Shown here piece after piece: positions 9,001 through 33,000 of a DNA stretch of 64,000 nucleotides; the stretch's first letter is position 1, and every line of letters begins with the position of its first letter. A program made the position numbers. The stretch covers positions 13,020,001 to 13,084,000 of the forward strand of contig NC_135250.1 of assembly GCF_964204865.1 (NCBI RefSeq). Reading direction: 5' to 3'. The stretch comes from Styela clava (Eukaryota).

Positions 9001-12000
9001 GGGTGATCATTACGACATGCTTGCTTAGCTGCGTCTACGTCCACAGAATCAATTTCTGCAAAATACTCGCTCAATGTGTAGATGGGGCCTGTGCCTTTTT
9101 TGATCTTTGAAATCCCACTTAAGTCATGTTATATTACGGAGAAAACAATTTCACTCCGTGGCTTCTCTTCGTGGCGAGTTCCATGGCCTGCAAACAAAAA
9201 TTATACTTGATTGCTGCTATGTGATTTTAAGAATAATAAGATATATATATTATACTTTTGGGACTTTCTCGGGTGTACCTCATATTTTACCGACCCGAAT
9301 GCCAATTTGTACAATCAGAGGAAAGGAATGTCGAACCTAAAAATACTTACGCAAAGAAGAATATATACAGTAGAAAAACCCCGATTAATATGAAAATAAC
9401 TCCCGCTGCTACCACCATGCTCAACACCATAGGCGACTTTATTGCTTGCATAGCTGATTGGTTCGCTGCTGAAGGGTCGGTTGTATCACCTGTGGGACGT
9501 AACACAATGTAGATTGAAGAAAAAATCTGTACACCGTACACTGTACAGCATTGGCTTATCGCGACTAACTCACTTATGCATTCTGGTACAACGTGAGTGA
9601 ATTCACCGCTCTCTTGGCAGGTAATTATGTTAGGTCCTGTCAATACAAATCCTTTTCCACAGTAAAATTCAAGAGAAACACCAAAAGGTACCAATCCCTT
9701 GCTTGAATCGTCTGGGTTACGACATCCTTTCACTGGAAATTTGAAATATAGAAATTCAAATTAAATCATTTCAAGCACGTAGAATGCAGGTGAAATTGTG
9801 TAGCTTTAAAGAAGAACTGTATCATCTTTCGTCGTCAGTTGTGAAAGATAGAAATTTTGATTGTAACAATTCAAAGCAAAAAGTCGCATTACAATATTAT
9901 TGAACATTTGCAGTTCAACCCACATCTCGGCGGTCTTCCATTTTGATTCTGCAGATGCTATTCGATGCACCACAGTTGCAGCTTTGTTCAGAGTATGATT
10001 TTTGGGGAAATTGTGGGTAAAATAATTTGGTTTTCTCGGCGGTGTGCGAATCGTGCTCAGCGTTAAGAATACGCTCGCTACCGCACCTCTGATTACCCTG
10101 CGTAGGATTCAGATTCAGATATTTATTTTCGTCATGCAAAAAACAATGCGCGATATGAAAAATGAATAAATAATATAATGTAACAAAATGTCAAATGGAT
10201 ATCGGCTTGTTGCAGTTGACGCGGAGTCGCGAAAAGACTCATAGAGTCATCTAGTCAGCGACACCTTGTAGCTGAAATTAAGCAGCAAATATAAGAAACG
10301 GGACACTCAATATTACACATTAACTTAATAAATTAACACGATCATACAAAAGACAAAAAAATAATACAAAATAAATAGAACTCAATATTACACATTGGCT
10401 TAATTGGACACAATCATTCGAAAAATGAAAAACAACAAGAAAAAAACCTGAGTAACTACGGGATGCCACAATCCCTGTGGAATGATTAACAAACATGAAA
10501 TAGGCTATAATCATACAAGAAAAAGAGCGGCAAAACATGCGAAATAAACCACGGAATGCCACAATGACTTTGGAATAAAAAAAGATTACTTTTAAATAAA
10601 AAACAAGACAGATAAAAAACATCAACAAATCGAAAATACACCACGGAATGTCATGACGGACGCAACAGCGACATCTATAAAATGGTTATGCCTCGTTGAG
10701 TACGGAGCACAGCGAAATAGCGTTATGACTCAGCGTTCAGTCTACACCAAGATGGCGTACCCAGCAACGGGAGTTTGCTGCTAGGGTTGAATTTGTGGCT
10801 ATTTTCTGTTAAAGCGATTGCTAGTAAATTATTGGCTCTACAGATTAGTGCAGAATGAATTATGTGATCTGCATACTTCGTGTCGATTGCACTGGGCTGA
10901 AAATAGTAAGGAAATACCAGGACACAATATGCAGACAGAAGAAAATGGCAAGTTTCAAAAAGATGGATGGATATAGAAAACAACAGAAGGTAATGTTTTC
11001 AGATCAATGACAACTAGGCCTATAGGCATCAAGATATAGGCTTTTCAGTGCATGTTTGTAAGAATTATAACTACTGGATCGAATGTTATTAGGGAGGTTA
11101 TTCCACAATTTAACACCAACGAATTTGATCGAGTTTTGAGTTCGTTTGGTGCTGAAGCGATTTACATAATATGAGCACCCGACAGAGGAGCGCGTTTCAT
11201 AAGAGTGAACGTTGCTCTGTTTTAAAAAATAGTTGGTGAAAGCGGAAGGGAGTTTTTTGCAGTGATGTTGGTGCATTATTTTCAATACCTCAATTTCATA
11301 AATATCTGCTAATTTAATAATTTTAAGACTATGATAAATAGGACTAAGTCGTGAAATATAACTGGCAGCAGAAATTGCACGAATTGCTCGGTTCTGAATA
11401 ATTTCAATGCGGTGTAATAAGGTTTTATCAGCTGAACCCCAAGCAATTATGCCATACTGGATATGGCTTTGAAATAAGGAATAGTAAATCATGCGTAAGG
11501 TGGTAAGCGATGTGTATCTTCTAAGCTTGTATAGCATTCCAACAGACTTGGATAATTTAACGGCCAGGTTGGACAAGTGAATATCCCACTTCATTTTACT
11601 ATCAATGTATATACCAAGATATTTAAAGGAATGGACATTTTCCAATTTTTTATTATCAATTTGGATTTTCAAAACATTTTTCGATTTGCATTGGTATGGA
11701 GATATTAACATAGATTTTGATTTTTCAATGTTTAGTGTTAATTTATTGGCTTTCATCCAACTTGACACTTTTGCAATTTCAGTATTTACTCTCAACTGAA
11801 GAACTGCACAAGATTTGTCGCTGTCAAGGAGATTAGTATCGTCAGCGAACAATTTGGAAAATAATGAAGAGCAATAAGTTATGTCGTTAATATATACGAG
11901 AAAAAGGAGAGGGCCCAAACAGCTACCTTGAGGAACTCCATGCGTCACCGGTAAGGGAGAAGAACAGTATGATCCCACTTGAACATATTGAGATCTATTA

Positions 12001-30000: not shown

Positions 30001-33000
30001 TGTTTTTCCACATAATTAGATATGCAGTATTTTTGCTCTGGACAATTGCGACCAAATTAGCTTGCTATTTTAAACCATTGACCTAAATTTATTGATATAA
30101 ATTTAACAAGTTTGTGGCCAGAGAATCGTAATGCGACGATGAGAATGATGATAAGCGGTAGGCTTACAAAGATTATCACATTGCCTGTATTAAAAAGAAT
30201 ACACTTAAAAATTAATGCCGAGAACTATCATGATAAGTAGCCTTTTCGTCCAAACTCACAATTTTGGGGTATGAGCTTATGCAGACACGTTTTTGTTATA
30301 AACCGACAGCAATTTTAAAAACGTGCACATGAAAAATACGAAAAAAAAACTTACCAAAGTTGATGAAAAAGACAGCAATGAAGCATAAACATGATATTTC
30401 ATTCATGGCACAAAATTAATCAAATAAATGAAATAGGACTCAAAACAGGTATCAGAAAATTGCAACACATTGGATACATTTACATATTGTACTGCAATGT
30501 AAGTAAACTTGATTAAATATAATAACATAAAGTTTTTACAATCTGAGTGTTCTGATATGCTACTCATTAAAAAGTAAAGTGTAAAATAAAGTTAAAGTTC
30601 ATCCATTTTACCCAATCCATTTTTGACTCAGATGATATATACTATATATATAGGCCTACAGTATATATTAGACGCATAGCTGTTTATTCAGAATTAAATT
30701 TTCAAACGATAATAAGAAATATCCGATTCATACGGAATGTTAAATATAGTTAAAGTTAAAGCTAGATTCCAGCAATCGAGGGCATGGACCCCGCCTAACA
30801 ACATTGATTTAAAATATCATCAAATCGCATTCGTCAGTAATAAAAATTTGTACAGACGGCGTTTGACATATTTCAATGGTACTTCACTAGCGAAAGTATT
30901 TATTTATTACATTTTCGTAGAAAAACCTACTTTCAGCCGCTGTGTAAATATAGACTGTCACAGCCAATGGTACAATTACATAACGTCACGCTAATAACCG
31001 AATTGCGTAAGTCATTTTTAGCAGTTTTGAGAAAAACGTAAAAAACTTGTATTGTTATGCCATTTAGAGTCAATAATTTACCATGGTTCAATTTTTTGAT
31101 CGTAACCGGATTTAAGTTAATTTGTATGACGCAGTTATGTGACGTCATAATGGCGCACTGTGACTTAGGCAGAAATGTGTCTATGGCTTGGGGACATACG
31201 CAATTTTGCAACTTGACTATATGCACCAGTCCTGAAAACCAAAGAATCCAAAAACGAATGTAATTCTCGGTATCTACGATGTCTAATCCCCAAAGTAGCT
31301 AATCTGTTTCAACTACATTATTTTTCATGTTTAAAAATATATATTTCATCAATATAACACGCTCTACACACCCGCCCGAAATAAGACTAATATTAAATAT
31401 AAAGAATAAAACAGCAATGTACCCTTATACAAGAGCCAACCAAGGGGAATTGGACTCAGACAGTGAATATCACAAGTGCGCGCCTTCCTATACTGAAGTA
31501 TAAATTCAAATTTATAAGCGCTAAGCTAGAATCTGAGATGCAAAAACTCGAAAATCCTTCGCAGAGGTTATTTGCCTTTGTGACATCACAATAGTCCTGT
31601 GGTAACAATGATAATTCATTATGACGACACAATTGCACAAATCTGCATGTCATACAAAATCTCCATTTTTATGGGTTTCGGAATTCTTAAAATAAAATTT
31701 GAGTTAACAGACAGGTGCGCAGCATTACACAAATACCTGTTTTATAAAAAACTCAAAACCGCCGAAAATGACTTACGCAATTCGGTTATTAGCCTGACGA
31801 TATGTAGGATGGAATATCTATCACGTACATGGAAAAGTATGAATAAATATCTAACTCGCCGTTCGCCGGATTTAATGCTGCTCGCCAAACGTTGATATTG
31901 TCGCAGGATACAAAAGACCATTCACAAAACTACGTTGGTATCCTAGCAATTTTTGTTTCCTGAAATCCTGAACGAACCGCCTGAAATGCCACCTCTTGGA
32001 TTTGTCACGGAATAGACATATATATATAACTTCTGTAACTAGAAATGCGCCAATGAAAGTTAGTTTTCCGTACCCGATTCCGGTACTTGTCAATATTCGT
32101 CCTATAAGTACATACTCTTACGAATCATTGACGTATATATATGTTTTATTTATCTCTTGAACGATAATATATGAACCTATCATATTGTTTTGATTAAATT
32201 ATAATATTTTTGACTTATATCGCCTTGAAAATAGTCATTTCAGAGTCACTGAGTTTCCATGTGGTTTTGGCAGACAAACATACATGGAAACAATCCCCTA
32301 AGTCAGTGGTTCGCAAAAATTTTGTCTCTCACGGAGCACCTTGAAAAAAACAAATTTATTTGGAGCACTTGGAGCATTTGAATAACATTTGACACCTCAA
32401 TGGAAAGCATTTCAAGCTCGAATTACTACACTACATCAACTTCTTTATTTAAACATTTCAAGTTCGAAAAATGAGCAGTCACGTTAGGTTTACAGATTTC
32501 TATTTGGGGATTCTTGTTCACACATGAATGAAAATCATTGGAGTGGAAAAGTGTGACCAATCAGATTAACCGAGGGAATAAAAAATTCCACTGTTAGCAA
32601 TTATTGGTATAACCTGCAAGAATAAGCTTATTAAAGTTTTATCCATGAATTCTTTTTATGTCGGAATAGGATACTTTTCCTATATGCGCAATAAACCTAC
32701 GCAAGGGCGCAGCCAGGCCGTTCAAAGTCGGAGATTCAAAATTCCCGTATAGCCCCATAGACTCACGAGGGAGAAGAAGCATGTTTGTTACAGTAATTTC
32801 CTTTTTTTGATACCTTAGAAAGGCTCGAGAAAGACTGATGGTTGTTTGGAGGCCAATATTATGATTTTGAATTTAATGATCAGCAACATAGGGTCTGGCA
32901 TATCACTCCCTGACAAGTAAAATGGCACGATTAGCTTGGTAGTTGATCAAATTGTCCTCCACAGTTCATTTATATAAATTCGCTCATCTTTTACAAAACA

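What the first reader, a model, noticed from the sequence alone, without database searches (positions are those of the whole stretch)
9151..30406. Modular CUB-(EGF)15-sushi-TM cell-surface protein built from symmetric cassette exons: candidate recognition or adhesion receptor
Seen: SP-CUB-15 EGF-CCP-TM and a ~12-aa tail with no signalling domain. Every EGF exon and the CCP exon is phase 1-1, so any can be skipped or duplicated without a frameshift. Many repeats carry Ca-binding (D[IV][DN]EC), O-glucose (C-x-S-x-P-C) and O-fucose (CxxxxS/TC) consensus. Pro/Lys hinges ([20 protein letters not shown]) separate blocks. Known: EGF arrays occur in fibropellins (EGF-CUB-EGFn-avidin) and the ascidian egg-coat protein VC70/VC120 (EGFn-ZP), and sushi plus EGF plus TM occurs in Botryllus fester. 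None has this order as far as I recall. Inference: a lineage-specific, length-variable gamete, self/non-self or adhesion molecule. Its tail-to-tail position with a KLHL10 homolog (spermatid-expressed in mouse) is suggestive but may be coincidental.
Basis: partly seen in the sequence, partly recalled or inferred. Interest (0 to 1): 0.68.

Follow-up and report, generated by a model that had tools for sequence, protein, structure and literature searches.

The report
Ascidian CUB-EGF-sushi membrane protein gene
This is a real sea-squirt gene for a long, rod-like cell-surface protein built from standard modules; public annotation already predicts it, another sea squirt has the same gene, and nobody has tested what it does.

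Summary
On the minus strand, 30406-9151, 21 exons encode signal peptide, CUB (two exons), 15 EGF modules, one CCP/sushi, a TM helix and a 12-residue tail. All 16 EGF and CCP exons are phase 1-1.

The window is Styela clava. The gene is RefSeq LOC120340754, "uncharacterized protein", formerly "fibropellin-1-like". RefSeq lists isoforms: X1 has all 15 EGFs, X2 lacks EGF6, X4 lacks EGF6-8, and an older record lacks EGF6-8 and EGF11-12.

It is not an orphan. Ciona intestinalis LOC100180981 has the same order, SP-CUB-12/13 EGF-CCP-TM, with 48% identity. Five C-terminal EGF modules match one to one, and the TM helix with its FAPWNxP motif is conserved. No other same-order relative turned up within the reach of my searches.

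The EGFs are Notch/Delta-type. The CUB aligns with the Ca-binding CUBs of cubilin and MASP-2.

My best reading is a non-signalling adhesion or co-receptor stalk of adjustable length. Nothing points to gamete or self/non-self use: the gene is single-copy in the window, conserved module by module, and barely variable between two records.

It is an ordinary exon-shuffled mosaic with an undescribed domain order. Interest is modest.

The parts
30355..30406 (-). E1: start codon and signal peptide (MNEISCLCFIAVFFINF), leaves in phase 1
   Evidence: identical to the N-terminus of RefSeq proteins P0001-P0004; hydrophobic window at residues 1-7 onward
29770..29942 (-). E2: N-terminal half of the CUB domain, phase 1 in, 0 out
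   Evidence: No Pfam hit alone at E<=0.1. It lies inside residues 19-144 of X1, which the Atlas features place in CUB-only clusters (23 of 30 hits, best score 0.93). Its aligned counterpart in Ciona P0126 lies inside that protein's full-length CUB match, 34-138.
27531..27735 (-). E3: C-terminal half of the CUB domain, with the E/D/D triad; GC donor
   Evidence: Pfam CUB E 1.7e-6, profile 42-110; aligns with cubilin and MASP-2 CUB1; donor choice examined
27077..27223 (-). E4: EGF1 (not Ca-binding), GC donor
   Evidence: Pfam EGF 7.4e-8; phase 1-1
25973..26101 (-). E5: KPEPKAEP linker and EGF2
   Evidence: Pfam EGF 6e-9
25659..25772 (-). E6: EGF3 (Ca-binding type)
25165..25284 (-). E7: EGF4. RefSeq uses the acceptor that starts the exon at 25284; a second AG six bases downstream would start it at 25278.
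24981..25094 (-). E8: EGF5, after a 70-nt intron
23575..23688 (-). E9: EGF6, cassette exon (absent from X2, X4 and the older record)
   Evidence: 93.9% nucleotide identity to E10
22451..22564 (-). E10: EGF7, cassette exon (absent from X4 and the older record)
21511..21624 (-). E11: EGF8, cassette exon (absent from X4 and the older record)
21066..21227 (-). E12: EGF9 and the Pro/Lys hinge ([12 protein letters not shown])
19482..19622 (-). E13: EGF10 and the KVKEPEKQ linker; reciprocal best match to Ciona EGF6
18942..19067 (-). E14: EGF11, GC donor; reciprocal best match to Ciona EGF8; absent from the older record
17773..17886 (-). E15: EGF12; reciprocal best match to Ciona EGF9; absent from the older record
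17375..17494 (-). E16: EGF13 with unusual C4-xxx-C5 spacing (CRKEC; Ciona has CRMEC)
16216..16323 (-). E17: EGF14
15505..15645 (-). E18: EGF15, with a 14-residue C3-C4 loop carrying an N-glycosylation sequon that Ciona has at the same position
9574..9732 (-). E19: CCP/sushi module (4 Cys), phase 1-1
   Evidence: Pfam Sushi 6.4e-9; 27 of 51 aligned residues identical to Ciona
9351..9489 (-). E20: juxtamembrane stretch and TM helix, leaves in phase 2
   Evidence: TM plus FAPWNxP 20 of 35 identical to Ciona
9151..9187 (-). E21: cytoplasmic tail (A)PWNSPRREATE and the stop codon
11004..15144 (-). Passenger, not part of the protein: non-LTR retrotransposon in the 5772-nt intron between E18 and E19. 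ORF2 is 11004-13967, ORF1 is 14080-15144.
   Evidence: Pfam RVT_1, Exo_endo_phos and Baculo_FP_2nd

Best explanation
This is the Styela clava gene LOC120340754. It is the only gene of its kind in the window, and I recovered one counterpart in Ciona. It encodes a type I membrane glycoprotein of 766-880 residues.

Shown:
- The order is signal peptide, one CUB, 15 Notch/Delta-type EGF modules, one CCP, one TM helix and a 12-residue tail.
- Every module sits on its own phase 1-1 exon.
- Ciona has the same order.
- The C-terminal EGF modules match Ciona one to one, while the central Ca-binding block differs in number: 7 modules in Styela, 3 in Ciona.
- Annotated isoforms lack one or three modules of that block.

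Inferred:
- The Ca-loaded EGF array forms a stiff stalk with two Pro/Lys hinges. It holds the N-terminal CUB head tens of nanometres from the cell.
- The head binds a partner through a Ca-coordinating Glu/Asp/Asp triad, as in cubilin and MASP CUB domains.
- The tail is too short to signal. Any signal would pass through the conserved TM helix and the FAPWNxP motif to another membrane protein.
- Skipping EGF6-8 shortens the stalk and so changes the reach of the head.

In short, it is a non-signalling adhesion or ligand-capturing co-receptor of adjustable length, made by ordinary exon shuffling and exon duplication.
For: - Gene model and phases.
- Module identity: (15 of 15 EGF exons, CUB, Sushi).
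- Organism and RefSeq records, with all junctions including the three GC donors reproduced.
- Isoforms X2 and X4 and the older record lack whole EGF exons.
- Ciona counterpart P0126: full CUB at 34-138, 12 EGF modules, and the CCP, TM and FAPWNAP seen in its sequence and alignment. Overall identity 48%. Its CCP-TM-tail is the only non-self match among 235 stored proteins.
- Module-level reciprocal best hits Sc10-Ci6, Sc11-Ci8, Sc12-Ci9, Sc13-Ci10 and Sc15-Ci12. All of Sc3-9 best-match Ci3-5.
- Two Ciona records differ by one 40-residue EGF module.
- EGF6 and EGF7 exons are 93.9% identical in nucleotides, while their introns are barely alignable.
- Nearest solved relatives of the EGFs are DLL1 and Notch1.
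- E3 aligns with cubilin and MASP-2 CUB1, with KLE, DKD and KTD opposite NLE, EYD and HSD. That these residues bind Ca is recalled, not tested.
- The O-fucose consensus is kept in 4 matched module pairs, and two N-glycosylation sequons keep their positions.
- Hydropathy and tail.
Against: - I saw no expression, localisation, binding or knock-out data for either species. Four searches found no paper on the gene, and supplementary tables were closed.
- The third acidic residue of the CUB triad is Asn in Ciona, so the Ca site may not be conserved.
- The CUB is the least conserved folded part: 40 of 106 aligned residues identical, against 108 of 190 for EGF11-15. That fits a fast-evolving head, or a head that matters less than the stalk.
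- The Ciona tail is about 50 residues longer and Lys/Ala-rich, so the short tail is not a conserved feature.
- The isoforms are computational RefSeq models, and I could not see their RNA support.
- The older 686-residue record may reflect another assembly rather than splicing.
Confidence: 0.45

Rival explanations
1. Notch-pathway modulator. The EGF array binds Notch or its ligands in cis or trans without a DSL domain, as reported for the fly protein Uif and, from memory, for DNER and DLK1. The protein would tune Notch signalling rather than mediate adhesion.
For: - The EGFs are closest to DLL1 and Notch1 among solved structures (E 2e-59 to 1e-27).
- Spacing is 4-5-8-1-8 in 11 of 15 modules, and O-fucose, O-glucose and EOGT-type consensus sites are frequent.
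- The O-fucose consensus is conserved in 4 matched pairs with Ciona.
- Uif is a TM protein with EGF repeats plus CUB and CCP domains, and it can antagonise Notch (PMC3340373: title, abstract start and passages).
Against: - No DSL or MNNL domain in any exon.
- Such EGF arrays and sugar consensus sites occur in thousands of unrelated proteins: 4084 hits at E<=1e-20 among 8000 candidates scored. The resemblance is therefore weak evidence.
- Uif is far larger and has a different domain order.
Confidence: 0.2
2. Shed extracellular-matrix or apical-lamina component of the fibropellin kind. The ectodomain is released and becomes part of a matrix such as tunic, endostyle secretion or egg coat.
For: - An earlier RefSeq release named it fibropellin-1-like.
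- CUB plus an EGF array is the fibropellin core. The Acanthaster fibropellin-1-like protein P0190 shows CUB and EGF matches.
- Fibropellin-1 lies in the sea-urchin apical lamina (PMC9325501 passages).
- Genes labelled fibropellin are reported as highly expressed in the Styela and Ciona endostyle (PMC9953650 passages). Which gene is meant is not stated there.
Against: - A TM helix with a conserved cytoplasmic FAPWNxP motif is kept in both species. A mere anchor that is discarded would not be expected to keep it.
- No avidin-like or F5/8-type C-terminal domain.
- I noticed no dibasic or furin-type site in the juxtamembrane stretch (by eye).
- The "fibropellin1" qPCR primers of PMC11988888 do not match the window at up to 3 mismatches, so that study concerns another gene.
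Confidence: 0.12
3. One reading: a fast-evolving gamete-recognition or self/non-self molecule whose diversity comes from exon skipping and copy-number change.
For: - Length-variant isoforms in the central EGF block.
- Module number differs between species and between Ciona records.
- EGF6 and EGF7 look homogenised or recently duplicated.
- Ascidian egg-coat proteins HrVC70 and HaVC80 are EGF arrays that differ by one duplicated EGF (PMC9265791 passages).
- Botryllus fester-family genes splice out exons between their Sushi domain and the membrane (PMC12582321 passages).
Against: - One copy in the window, with no cluster.
- One-to-one module conservation with Ciona across the C-terminal half.
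- Only 4 substitutions over the 686 residues of the shorter record between two S. clava records.
- No ZP domain, no Ig domain and no multi-pass membrane part.
- The passages I read in the fertilisation review name no such protein.
- That the neighbour is KLHL10 is untested.
Confidence: 0.08
4. Annotation artefact or decaying gene: the GC donors and the missing exons in some records reflect a pseudogene or an assembly error.
For: - 3 of 20 donors are non-GT.
- The records differ in exon content.
Against: - The reading frame is open through all 21 exons.
- All cysteine frameworks are intact.
- The residues at the three GC junctions are conserved in Ciona.
- At E4 and E14, the only in-phase GT donors among the candidates listed would remove the sixth cysteine. 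At E3, the only one would add 26 residues that RefSeq and Ciona lack.
Confidence: 0.02

Closest known systems
Ciona intestinalis LOC100180981 (XP_078487205.1, 776 aa; older XP_026693578.1 'fibropellin-1-like isoform X2', 816 aa)
   Same: Same order: SP-CUB-EGF array-CCP-TM-FAPWNxP. Overall identity is 48%. EGF10-13 and EGF15 match one to one, including the odd CR(K/M)EC spacing. N-glycosylation sequons keep their positions. The records differ by one EGF module.
   Different: 12 or 13 EGF modules instead of 15. It has an extra Ca-binding EGF (Ci7) between the counterparts of EGF10 and EGF11. Its tail is about 50 residues longer and Lys/Ala-rich. The third CUB acidic residue is Asn. Like the Styela gene, it is uncharacterised.
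Sea-urchin fibropellins (source of the old RefSeq name)
   Same: CUB plus a long array of Notch-type EGF modules; extracellular.
   Different: Fibropellins are secreted apical-lamina proteins. From memory, they have an EGF before the CUB and an avidin-like C-terminal domain. Here the CUB is N-terminal and the C-terminus is CCP, TM and tail, with no avidin-like match.
Notch, Delta/Jagged and (from memory) Crumbs, DNER and DLK1 EGF arrays
   Same: EGF sequence type, Ca-binding runs, sugar consensus sites, single TM. Best solved matches are DLL1 and Notch1.
   Different: No LNR or ankyrin part, no DSL/MNNL domain and no laminin-G domain. CUB head and CCP base instead.
Drosophila Uif (uninflatable)
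   Same: A TM protein that combines EGF repeats with CUB and CCP domains (PMC3340373 title and passages).
   Different: Uif also has a C-type lectin domain, three CUB, eight CCP, FA58C and HYR domains. There is no evidence of orthology.
CUB1-EGF heads of MASP, C1r and C1s, and the CUBs of cubilin
   Same: N-terminal CUB followed by EGF. E3 aligns with these CUBs, with the acidic triad in register. Cubilin-like proteins are the nearest CUB relatives.
   Different: No protease domain and no CUB array. EGF1 here is not of the Ca-binding type.
Botryllus fester family and ascidian egg-coat EGF proteins (HrVC70/HaVC80, CiVC57)
   Same: Fester genes have a Sushi domain near the membrane, and splicing changes the distance of the head from the membrane. 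The VC proteins are EGF arrays whose module number differs between species.
   Different: Fester is Ig plus Sushi plus three TM segments, with no EGF. The VC proteins end in a ZP domain. Neither has a CUB.

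Membership tests
Ascidian LOC120340754/LOC100180981 orthologue pair | Same domain order and collinear alignment over the whole length | tested here: met
   Alignment A1, 48% identity, collinear from the signal peptide to FAPWNxP; CUB match in P0126; CCP seen in its sequence and alignment
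Ascidian LOC120340754/LOC100180981 orthologue pair | Specific C-terminal part (CCP, TM, FAPWNxP) not shared with other EGF-array proteins | tested here: met
   Among 235 stored proteins only the 4 S. clava records and P0126 match. These 235 are the best 113 CUB hits and the 120 listed EGF-array hits, not a whole database.
Fibropellin | CUB plus a long EGF array | tested here: met
Fibropellin | C-terminal avidin-like domain, secreted, no TM (feature recalled) | tested here: not met
   The C-terminal exons give Sushi and no family; no avidin family in the whole-protein scan; TM helix present
Notch receptor | LNR repeats, heterodimerisation domain, ankyrin repeats in the tail (recalled) | tested here: not met
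   The tail is 12 residues; only EGF, CUB and Sushi families found
DSL ligands (Delta/Serrate/Jagged) | N-terminal MNNL and DSL domains | tested here: not met
   The N-terminus is a CUB. PF01414 and PF07657 appear for the Jagged/Delta hits but not for this protein.
Ascidian egg-coat VC70/VC120 type | EGF array followed by a ZP domain | tested here: not met
   No ZP family in any exon or in X1; architecture of HrVC120 and CiVC57 from PMC9265791 passages
Botryllus fester family | N-terminal Ig-like domain, Sushi, three TM segments | tested here: not met
   Only the Sushi is shared. There is one TM stretch and no Ig family. Definition from PMC12582321 passages. No fester sequence was compared.
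Selectins | C-type lectin head, one EGF, CCP repeats, TM (recalled) | tested here: not met
   No lectin family
Class 1-1 exon-shuffled mosaic proteins | Each mobile module flanked by phase-1 introns | tested here: met
   16 of 16 EGF and CCP exons, and the CUB as a two-exon unit; rule quoted from PMC3927616 passages
Ca-binding CUB domains | Glu/Asp/Asp triad that coordinates Ca (residue roles recalled) | tested here: inconclusive
   The triad is in register with MASP-2 CUB1 and cubilin in Styela, but the third residue is Asn in Ciona. No usable structure model.
KLHL10 (the neighbouring gene) | Orthology to KLHL10 rather than to another Kelch-like protein | not tested
   BTB, BACK and Kelch exons confirmed. 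The PDB look-up was uninformative.

The most novel reading that the evidence does not exclude
This is a tunicate-specific "adjustable-reach" recognition receptor. Regulated skipping of the central Ca-binding EGF cassette (EGF6-8), together with lineage-specific exon duplication or conversion in that cassette, sets how far the CUB head stands from the membrane. That distance decides which partner or which cell contact it can engage. The principle is the one now described for Botryllus fester-family genes, but here it is built from EGF modules and used in blood-cell, gamete or tissue recognition.
Probability: 0.12. Interest if true: 0.6.

Novelty: new variant of a known kind. Interest (0 to 1): 0.3.

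Why it matters
The gene is a clean, small example of how exon-shuffled modules behave after assembly. In one gene, a framework of individually conserved modules (CUB, EGF1-2, EGF10-15, CCP, TM) surrounds a central block that changes in number between species and, by annotation, between transcripts.

If the length variants are real and regulated, Ciona would be a tractable chordate system for testing how stalk length affects a surface receptor.

There is also a practical point. Whole-protein Pfam scans miss the CUB (in Styela) and the Sushi (in both species), while single exons hit them. Architecture searches in public domain databases would therefore overlook this family.

Tried and rejected
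**Joined model left out.** Exons were searched one by one. Full-length comparisons used the public RefSeq records by id.

**Half-CUB search.** E3 alone against 1.84 billion representatives gave 114 hits at E<=0.001. Apart from the gene's own record, identity was at most 44%. Of the 113 others, 0 combined at least 3 EGF patterns with a C-terminal hydrophobic segment. This search missed the Ciona orthologue, so an empty result from one exon is weak evidence.

**Word-based search of residues 1-150.** It returned only the gene's own records, 2 of 50 candidates.

**Atlas look-ups.** They gave only generic CUB clusters and leads below 0.9 to membrane cofactor protein and complement receptors.

**AlphaFold2 model of X1.** With a two-sequence alignment the mean pLDDT was 37.5, so I drew no conclusion from it and did no fold search.

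**Complex prediction.** It never entered the queue. The queue was full, and the job was not sent on. There is therefore no result.

**qPCR primers.** The "fibropellin1" primers of PMC11988888 do not match the window.

**Ciona-like tail.** I found no exon for a Ciona-like Lys/Ala tail in the window.

**Literature.** Seven searches found no paper on this gene. Supplementary tables were closed, so expression tables of the Styela papers (PMC11988888, PMC9953650) stayed unseen.

**Collections.** I did not use genome contigs, which holds bacteria and archaea only.

**KLHL10.** The PDB look-up of the BTB exon said nothing useful.

Full report
**What is there.** The window has no N and 30-38% G+C. Between 9151 and 30406 the minus strand carries a string of short open frames with the six-cysteine EGF pattern. 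From the codon-level print-out and the last 400 bases I set exon borders by coordinate and checked them in a script.

- There are 21 exons, with ATG at 30406 and the stop at 9153-9151.
- Every acceptor is AG. 17 of 20 donors are GT and 3 are GC (after E3, E4 and E14).
- The CDS is 2637 nt, or 2643 nt with the acceptor six bases upstream at E7.
- All 15 EGF exons and the CCP exon enter and leave in phase 1. The CUB is a two-exon unit that is also 1-1 overall.
The table rests on coordinates only.

**Module identity, exon by exon.** Of the 21 exons, 19 were scanned; E1 and E21 are under 20 residues.

- 15 of 15 EGF exons pass the Pfam EGF cut-off.
- E3 matches the C-terminal two thirds of CUB.
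- E19 matches Sushi.
- E2 and E20 match nothing alone.
- E2 belongs to residues 19-144 of X1, which the Atlas features place in CUB clusters. It aligns with the first half of the Ciona protein's full-length CUB match.
- Hydropathy shows a signal peptide and one TM stretch near the C-terminus.
- The tail is 12 residues.

**Motif counts in the 15 modules.** The patterns are recalled from the Notch glycosylation literature, not taken from a tool.

| Motif | Modules |
|---|---|
| Ca-binding N-motif | 9 of 15 |
| Hydroxylation type | 10 of 15 |
| O-glucose | 10 of 15 |
| O-fucose | 6 of 15 |
| EOGT type | 10 of 15 |

Spacing is 4-5-8-1-8 in 11 of 15 modules. EGF13 has three residues between C4 and C5.

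**Whose gene it is.** Searching E3 alone among longer proteins returned two records, both 100% identical and both from the ascidian Styela clava: "fibropellin-1-like" (686 aa) and "uncharacterized protein LOC120340754 isoform X2" (842 aa). The cluster look-up added X1 (880 aa) and X4 (766 aa). Mapping my exon translations onto these records gave:

| Record | Exon content |
|---|---|
| X1 | all 21 exons |
| X2 | lacks E9 (EGF6) |
| X4 | lacks E9-E11 (EGF6-8) |
| older record | lacks E9-E11 and E14-E15, and has four single-residue differences |

- The RefSeq proteins reproduce all my junctions, including the three GC donors.
- At E4 and E14, the only in-phase GT donors among the candidates listed would delete the sixth cysteine. 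At E3, the only one would add 26 residues.
- The gene is thus already predicted in public annotation, with length variants, but it is unnamed. These isoforms are computational, and I could not see their RNA evidence.

**Relatives.**

- A word-based search with residues 1-150 of the public protein found only the gene itself.
- An exhaustive search of 1.84 billion representatives with E3 gave 114 hits at E<=0.001. All but the gene's own record were at most 44% identical, and most were multi-CUB proteins, about twenty of them 3200-4100 residues long with six EGF patterns each, which I take for cubilins. None had this architecture.
- A search with the whole public X1 among proteins of similar length gave 4084 hits at E<=1e-20 out of 8000 candidates scored. 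The named ones among the 120 listed were mostly Notch, Jagged, Crumbs and "fibropellin-like" proteins.
- Among the 120 listed was Ciona intestinalis LOC100180981, 776 aa.

The Ciona protein has a signal peptide and a full CUB at 34-138, 12 EGF modules, and a CCP, a TM helix and the same FAPWN(A/S)P motif at the inner face of the membrane. The alignment is collinear, with 48% identity overall. By region:

| Region | Identical / aligned |
|---|---|
| CUB | 40 / 106 |
| EGF11-15 | 108 / 190 |
| CCP | 27 / 51 |
| TM with motif | 20 / 35 |
| juxtamembrane | 4 / 17 |

E3 alone had not found the Ciona protein. Exon-wise searches are therefore blind at this distance, and my failure to find non-ascidian orthologues is weak evidence.

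**Framework modules and a variable cassette.** A module-by-module score matrix gives clear reciprocal best pairs for Styela EGF10, 11, 12, 13 and 15 with Ciona EGF6, 8, 9, 10 and 12.

- The pairs share the odd CR(K/M)EC spacing and the long loop of the last module.
- The N-glycosylation sequon in that loop is kept in place.
- The O-fucose consensus is kept in four matched pairs.
- By contrast, Styela EGF3-9 all best-match Ciona EGF3-5. The central Ca-binding block has 7 modules in Styela and 3 in Ciona.
- This is the block that the Styela isoforms shorten. The two Ciona records also differ there, by one 40-residue EGF module.
- Within it, the EGF6 and EGF7 exons are 93.9% identical in nucleotides, with 3 synonymous and 4 non-synonymous codon differences. 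Their flanking introns align only weakly within 100 nt and not beyond. That suggests exon-limited conversion, or a duplication followed by intron turnover.

One cassette is.

**Surroundings.**

- No other EGF, CUB or CCP coding piece lies outside the gene in the window: 0 HSPs outside the gene for either public protein, and 0 of 149 outside ORFs with such families.
- Tail to tail on the plus strand lies a BTB-BACK-Kelch gene; 10 of the 149 ORFs, between 1616 and 8316, hit these families. Whether it is KLHL10 I could not test.
- The 5772-nt intron before the CCP exon holds a non-LTR retrotransposon with open ORF1 and ORF2, in the gene's orientation.
- Upstream, at 42-58 kb on the minus strand, there are large Ser/Lys-rich frames with isolated zinc-finger-like motifs and no Pfam family.

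**How it probably works.**

Shown:
- A type I surface protein with an N-terminal CUB, a long Notch/Delta-type EGF array whose nearest solved relatives are DLL1 and Notch1, a membrane-proximal CCP, a conserved TM helix and juxtamembrane motif, and no signalling domain.

Inferred:
- Runs of Ca-binding EGF modules form stiff rods (general knowledge of fibrillin and Notch). The protein is therefore a stalk with two hinges that presents the CUB far from the cell.
- E3 aligns with cubilin and MASP-2 CUB1, with Glu, Asp and Asp in the positions that bind Ca there (residue roles recalled). Such CUBs grip basic residues of their partners. In Ciona the third residue is Asn, so this point is open.
- The conservation of the TM helix and FAPWNxP points to contact with another membrane or cortical protein.
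- Skipping EGF6-8 would shorten the rod.

I put about 0.45 on this adhesion or co-receptor reading. I put 0.2 on a Notch-modulating role like that of the fly protein Uif, which also combines EGF, CUB and CCP.

**Comparison with the known.**

- It is not a fibropellin: it has no avidin-like end and it has a TM.
- It is not a Notch or a DSL ligand, not a VC70-type egg-coat protein (no ZP domain), not a selectin, and not a fester relative.
Fester genes do splice out exons between Sushi and membrane, which is a useful functional parallel.
- Phase 1-1 symmetry is the textbook property of shuffled extracellular modules and also eases exon skipping (PMC3927616 passages).

**What stayed unchecked.**

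- I left out the joined step for my own model, and I could not run a full-domain profile search outside the stored proteins.
- The AlphaFold model was unusable.
- The complex job never entered the queue.
- No paper on the gene was found.

**Verdict.** This is a real, correctly described gene. It is an ordinary exon-shuffled mosaic, already predicted in RefSeq and shared by at least two ascidian orders. Its domain order has not been described, and it carries a plausible length-variable cassette. Novelty: new variant of a known kind. Interest: 0.3.

Noticed in passing
window 27529-27530, 27075-27076, 18940-18941 (minus strand): Three of the gene's 20 introns start with GC instead of GT. The junction residues are confirmed by the RefSeq proteins and conserved in Ciona. 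From memory, GC donors usually run at about one in a hundred, so three in one gene is a high share. Whether it is typical of Styela or linked to exon skipping is unknown.
   Followed up: partly
window 11004-15144, minus strand: A non-LTR retrotransposon with both frames open lies in the intron before the CCP exon, in the gene's orientation. ORF2 is 987 aa with endonuclease and reverse transcriptase. ORF1 is 354 aa and ends in a Baculo_FP_2nd match.
   Followed up: partly
window 41948-44389, 46047-46961, 47450-49339, 54040-55902, 56474-58300, minus strand: Five long open frames (305-814 aa) with no Pfam family. They are Ser/Lys-rich, and three of them carry isolated C2H2-like zinc-finger motifs. 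They did not match each other by BLASTP. They are probably giant exons of one upstream neighbour gene.
   Followed up: partly
window 1616-8316, plus strand: A BTB-BACK-Kelch gene lies tail to tail with the finding. The domain families are confirmed, but its assignment to KLHL10 was not tested.
   Followed up: partly
proteins P0003 and P0126 (public records of the Styela and Ciona genes): A whole-protein Pfam scan reports only EGF families for the Styela protein and no Sushi for either protein. The single exons hit CUB and Sushi clearly. I suspect the EGF-rich composition hides the other domains from the scan's filters, but I did not test this. Public domain-architecture tables probably miss this family.
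   Followed up: yes
window 21830-21948 and 21969-22088; 17069-17286; 29046-29224 against 10110-10290: Small intronic repeats. One is a tandem pair with 88% identity in the intron between EGF7 and EGF8. One is a 224-nt self-complementary stretch in the intron between EGF13 and EGF14. One is an inverted pair shared by the intron inside the CUB and the large intron before the CCP exon. They are probably short mobile elements.
   Followed up: no
window 25095-25164 and 9490-9573: Two very short introns, of 70 and 84 nt, among introns of 163 to 5772 nt.
   Followed up: no
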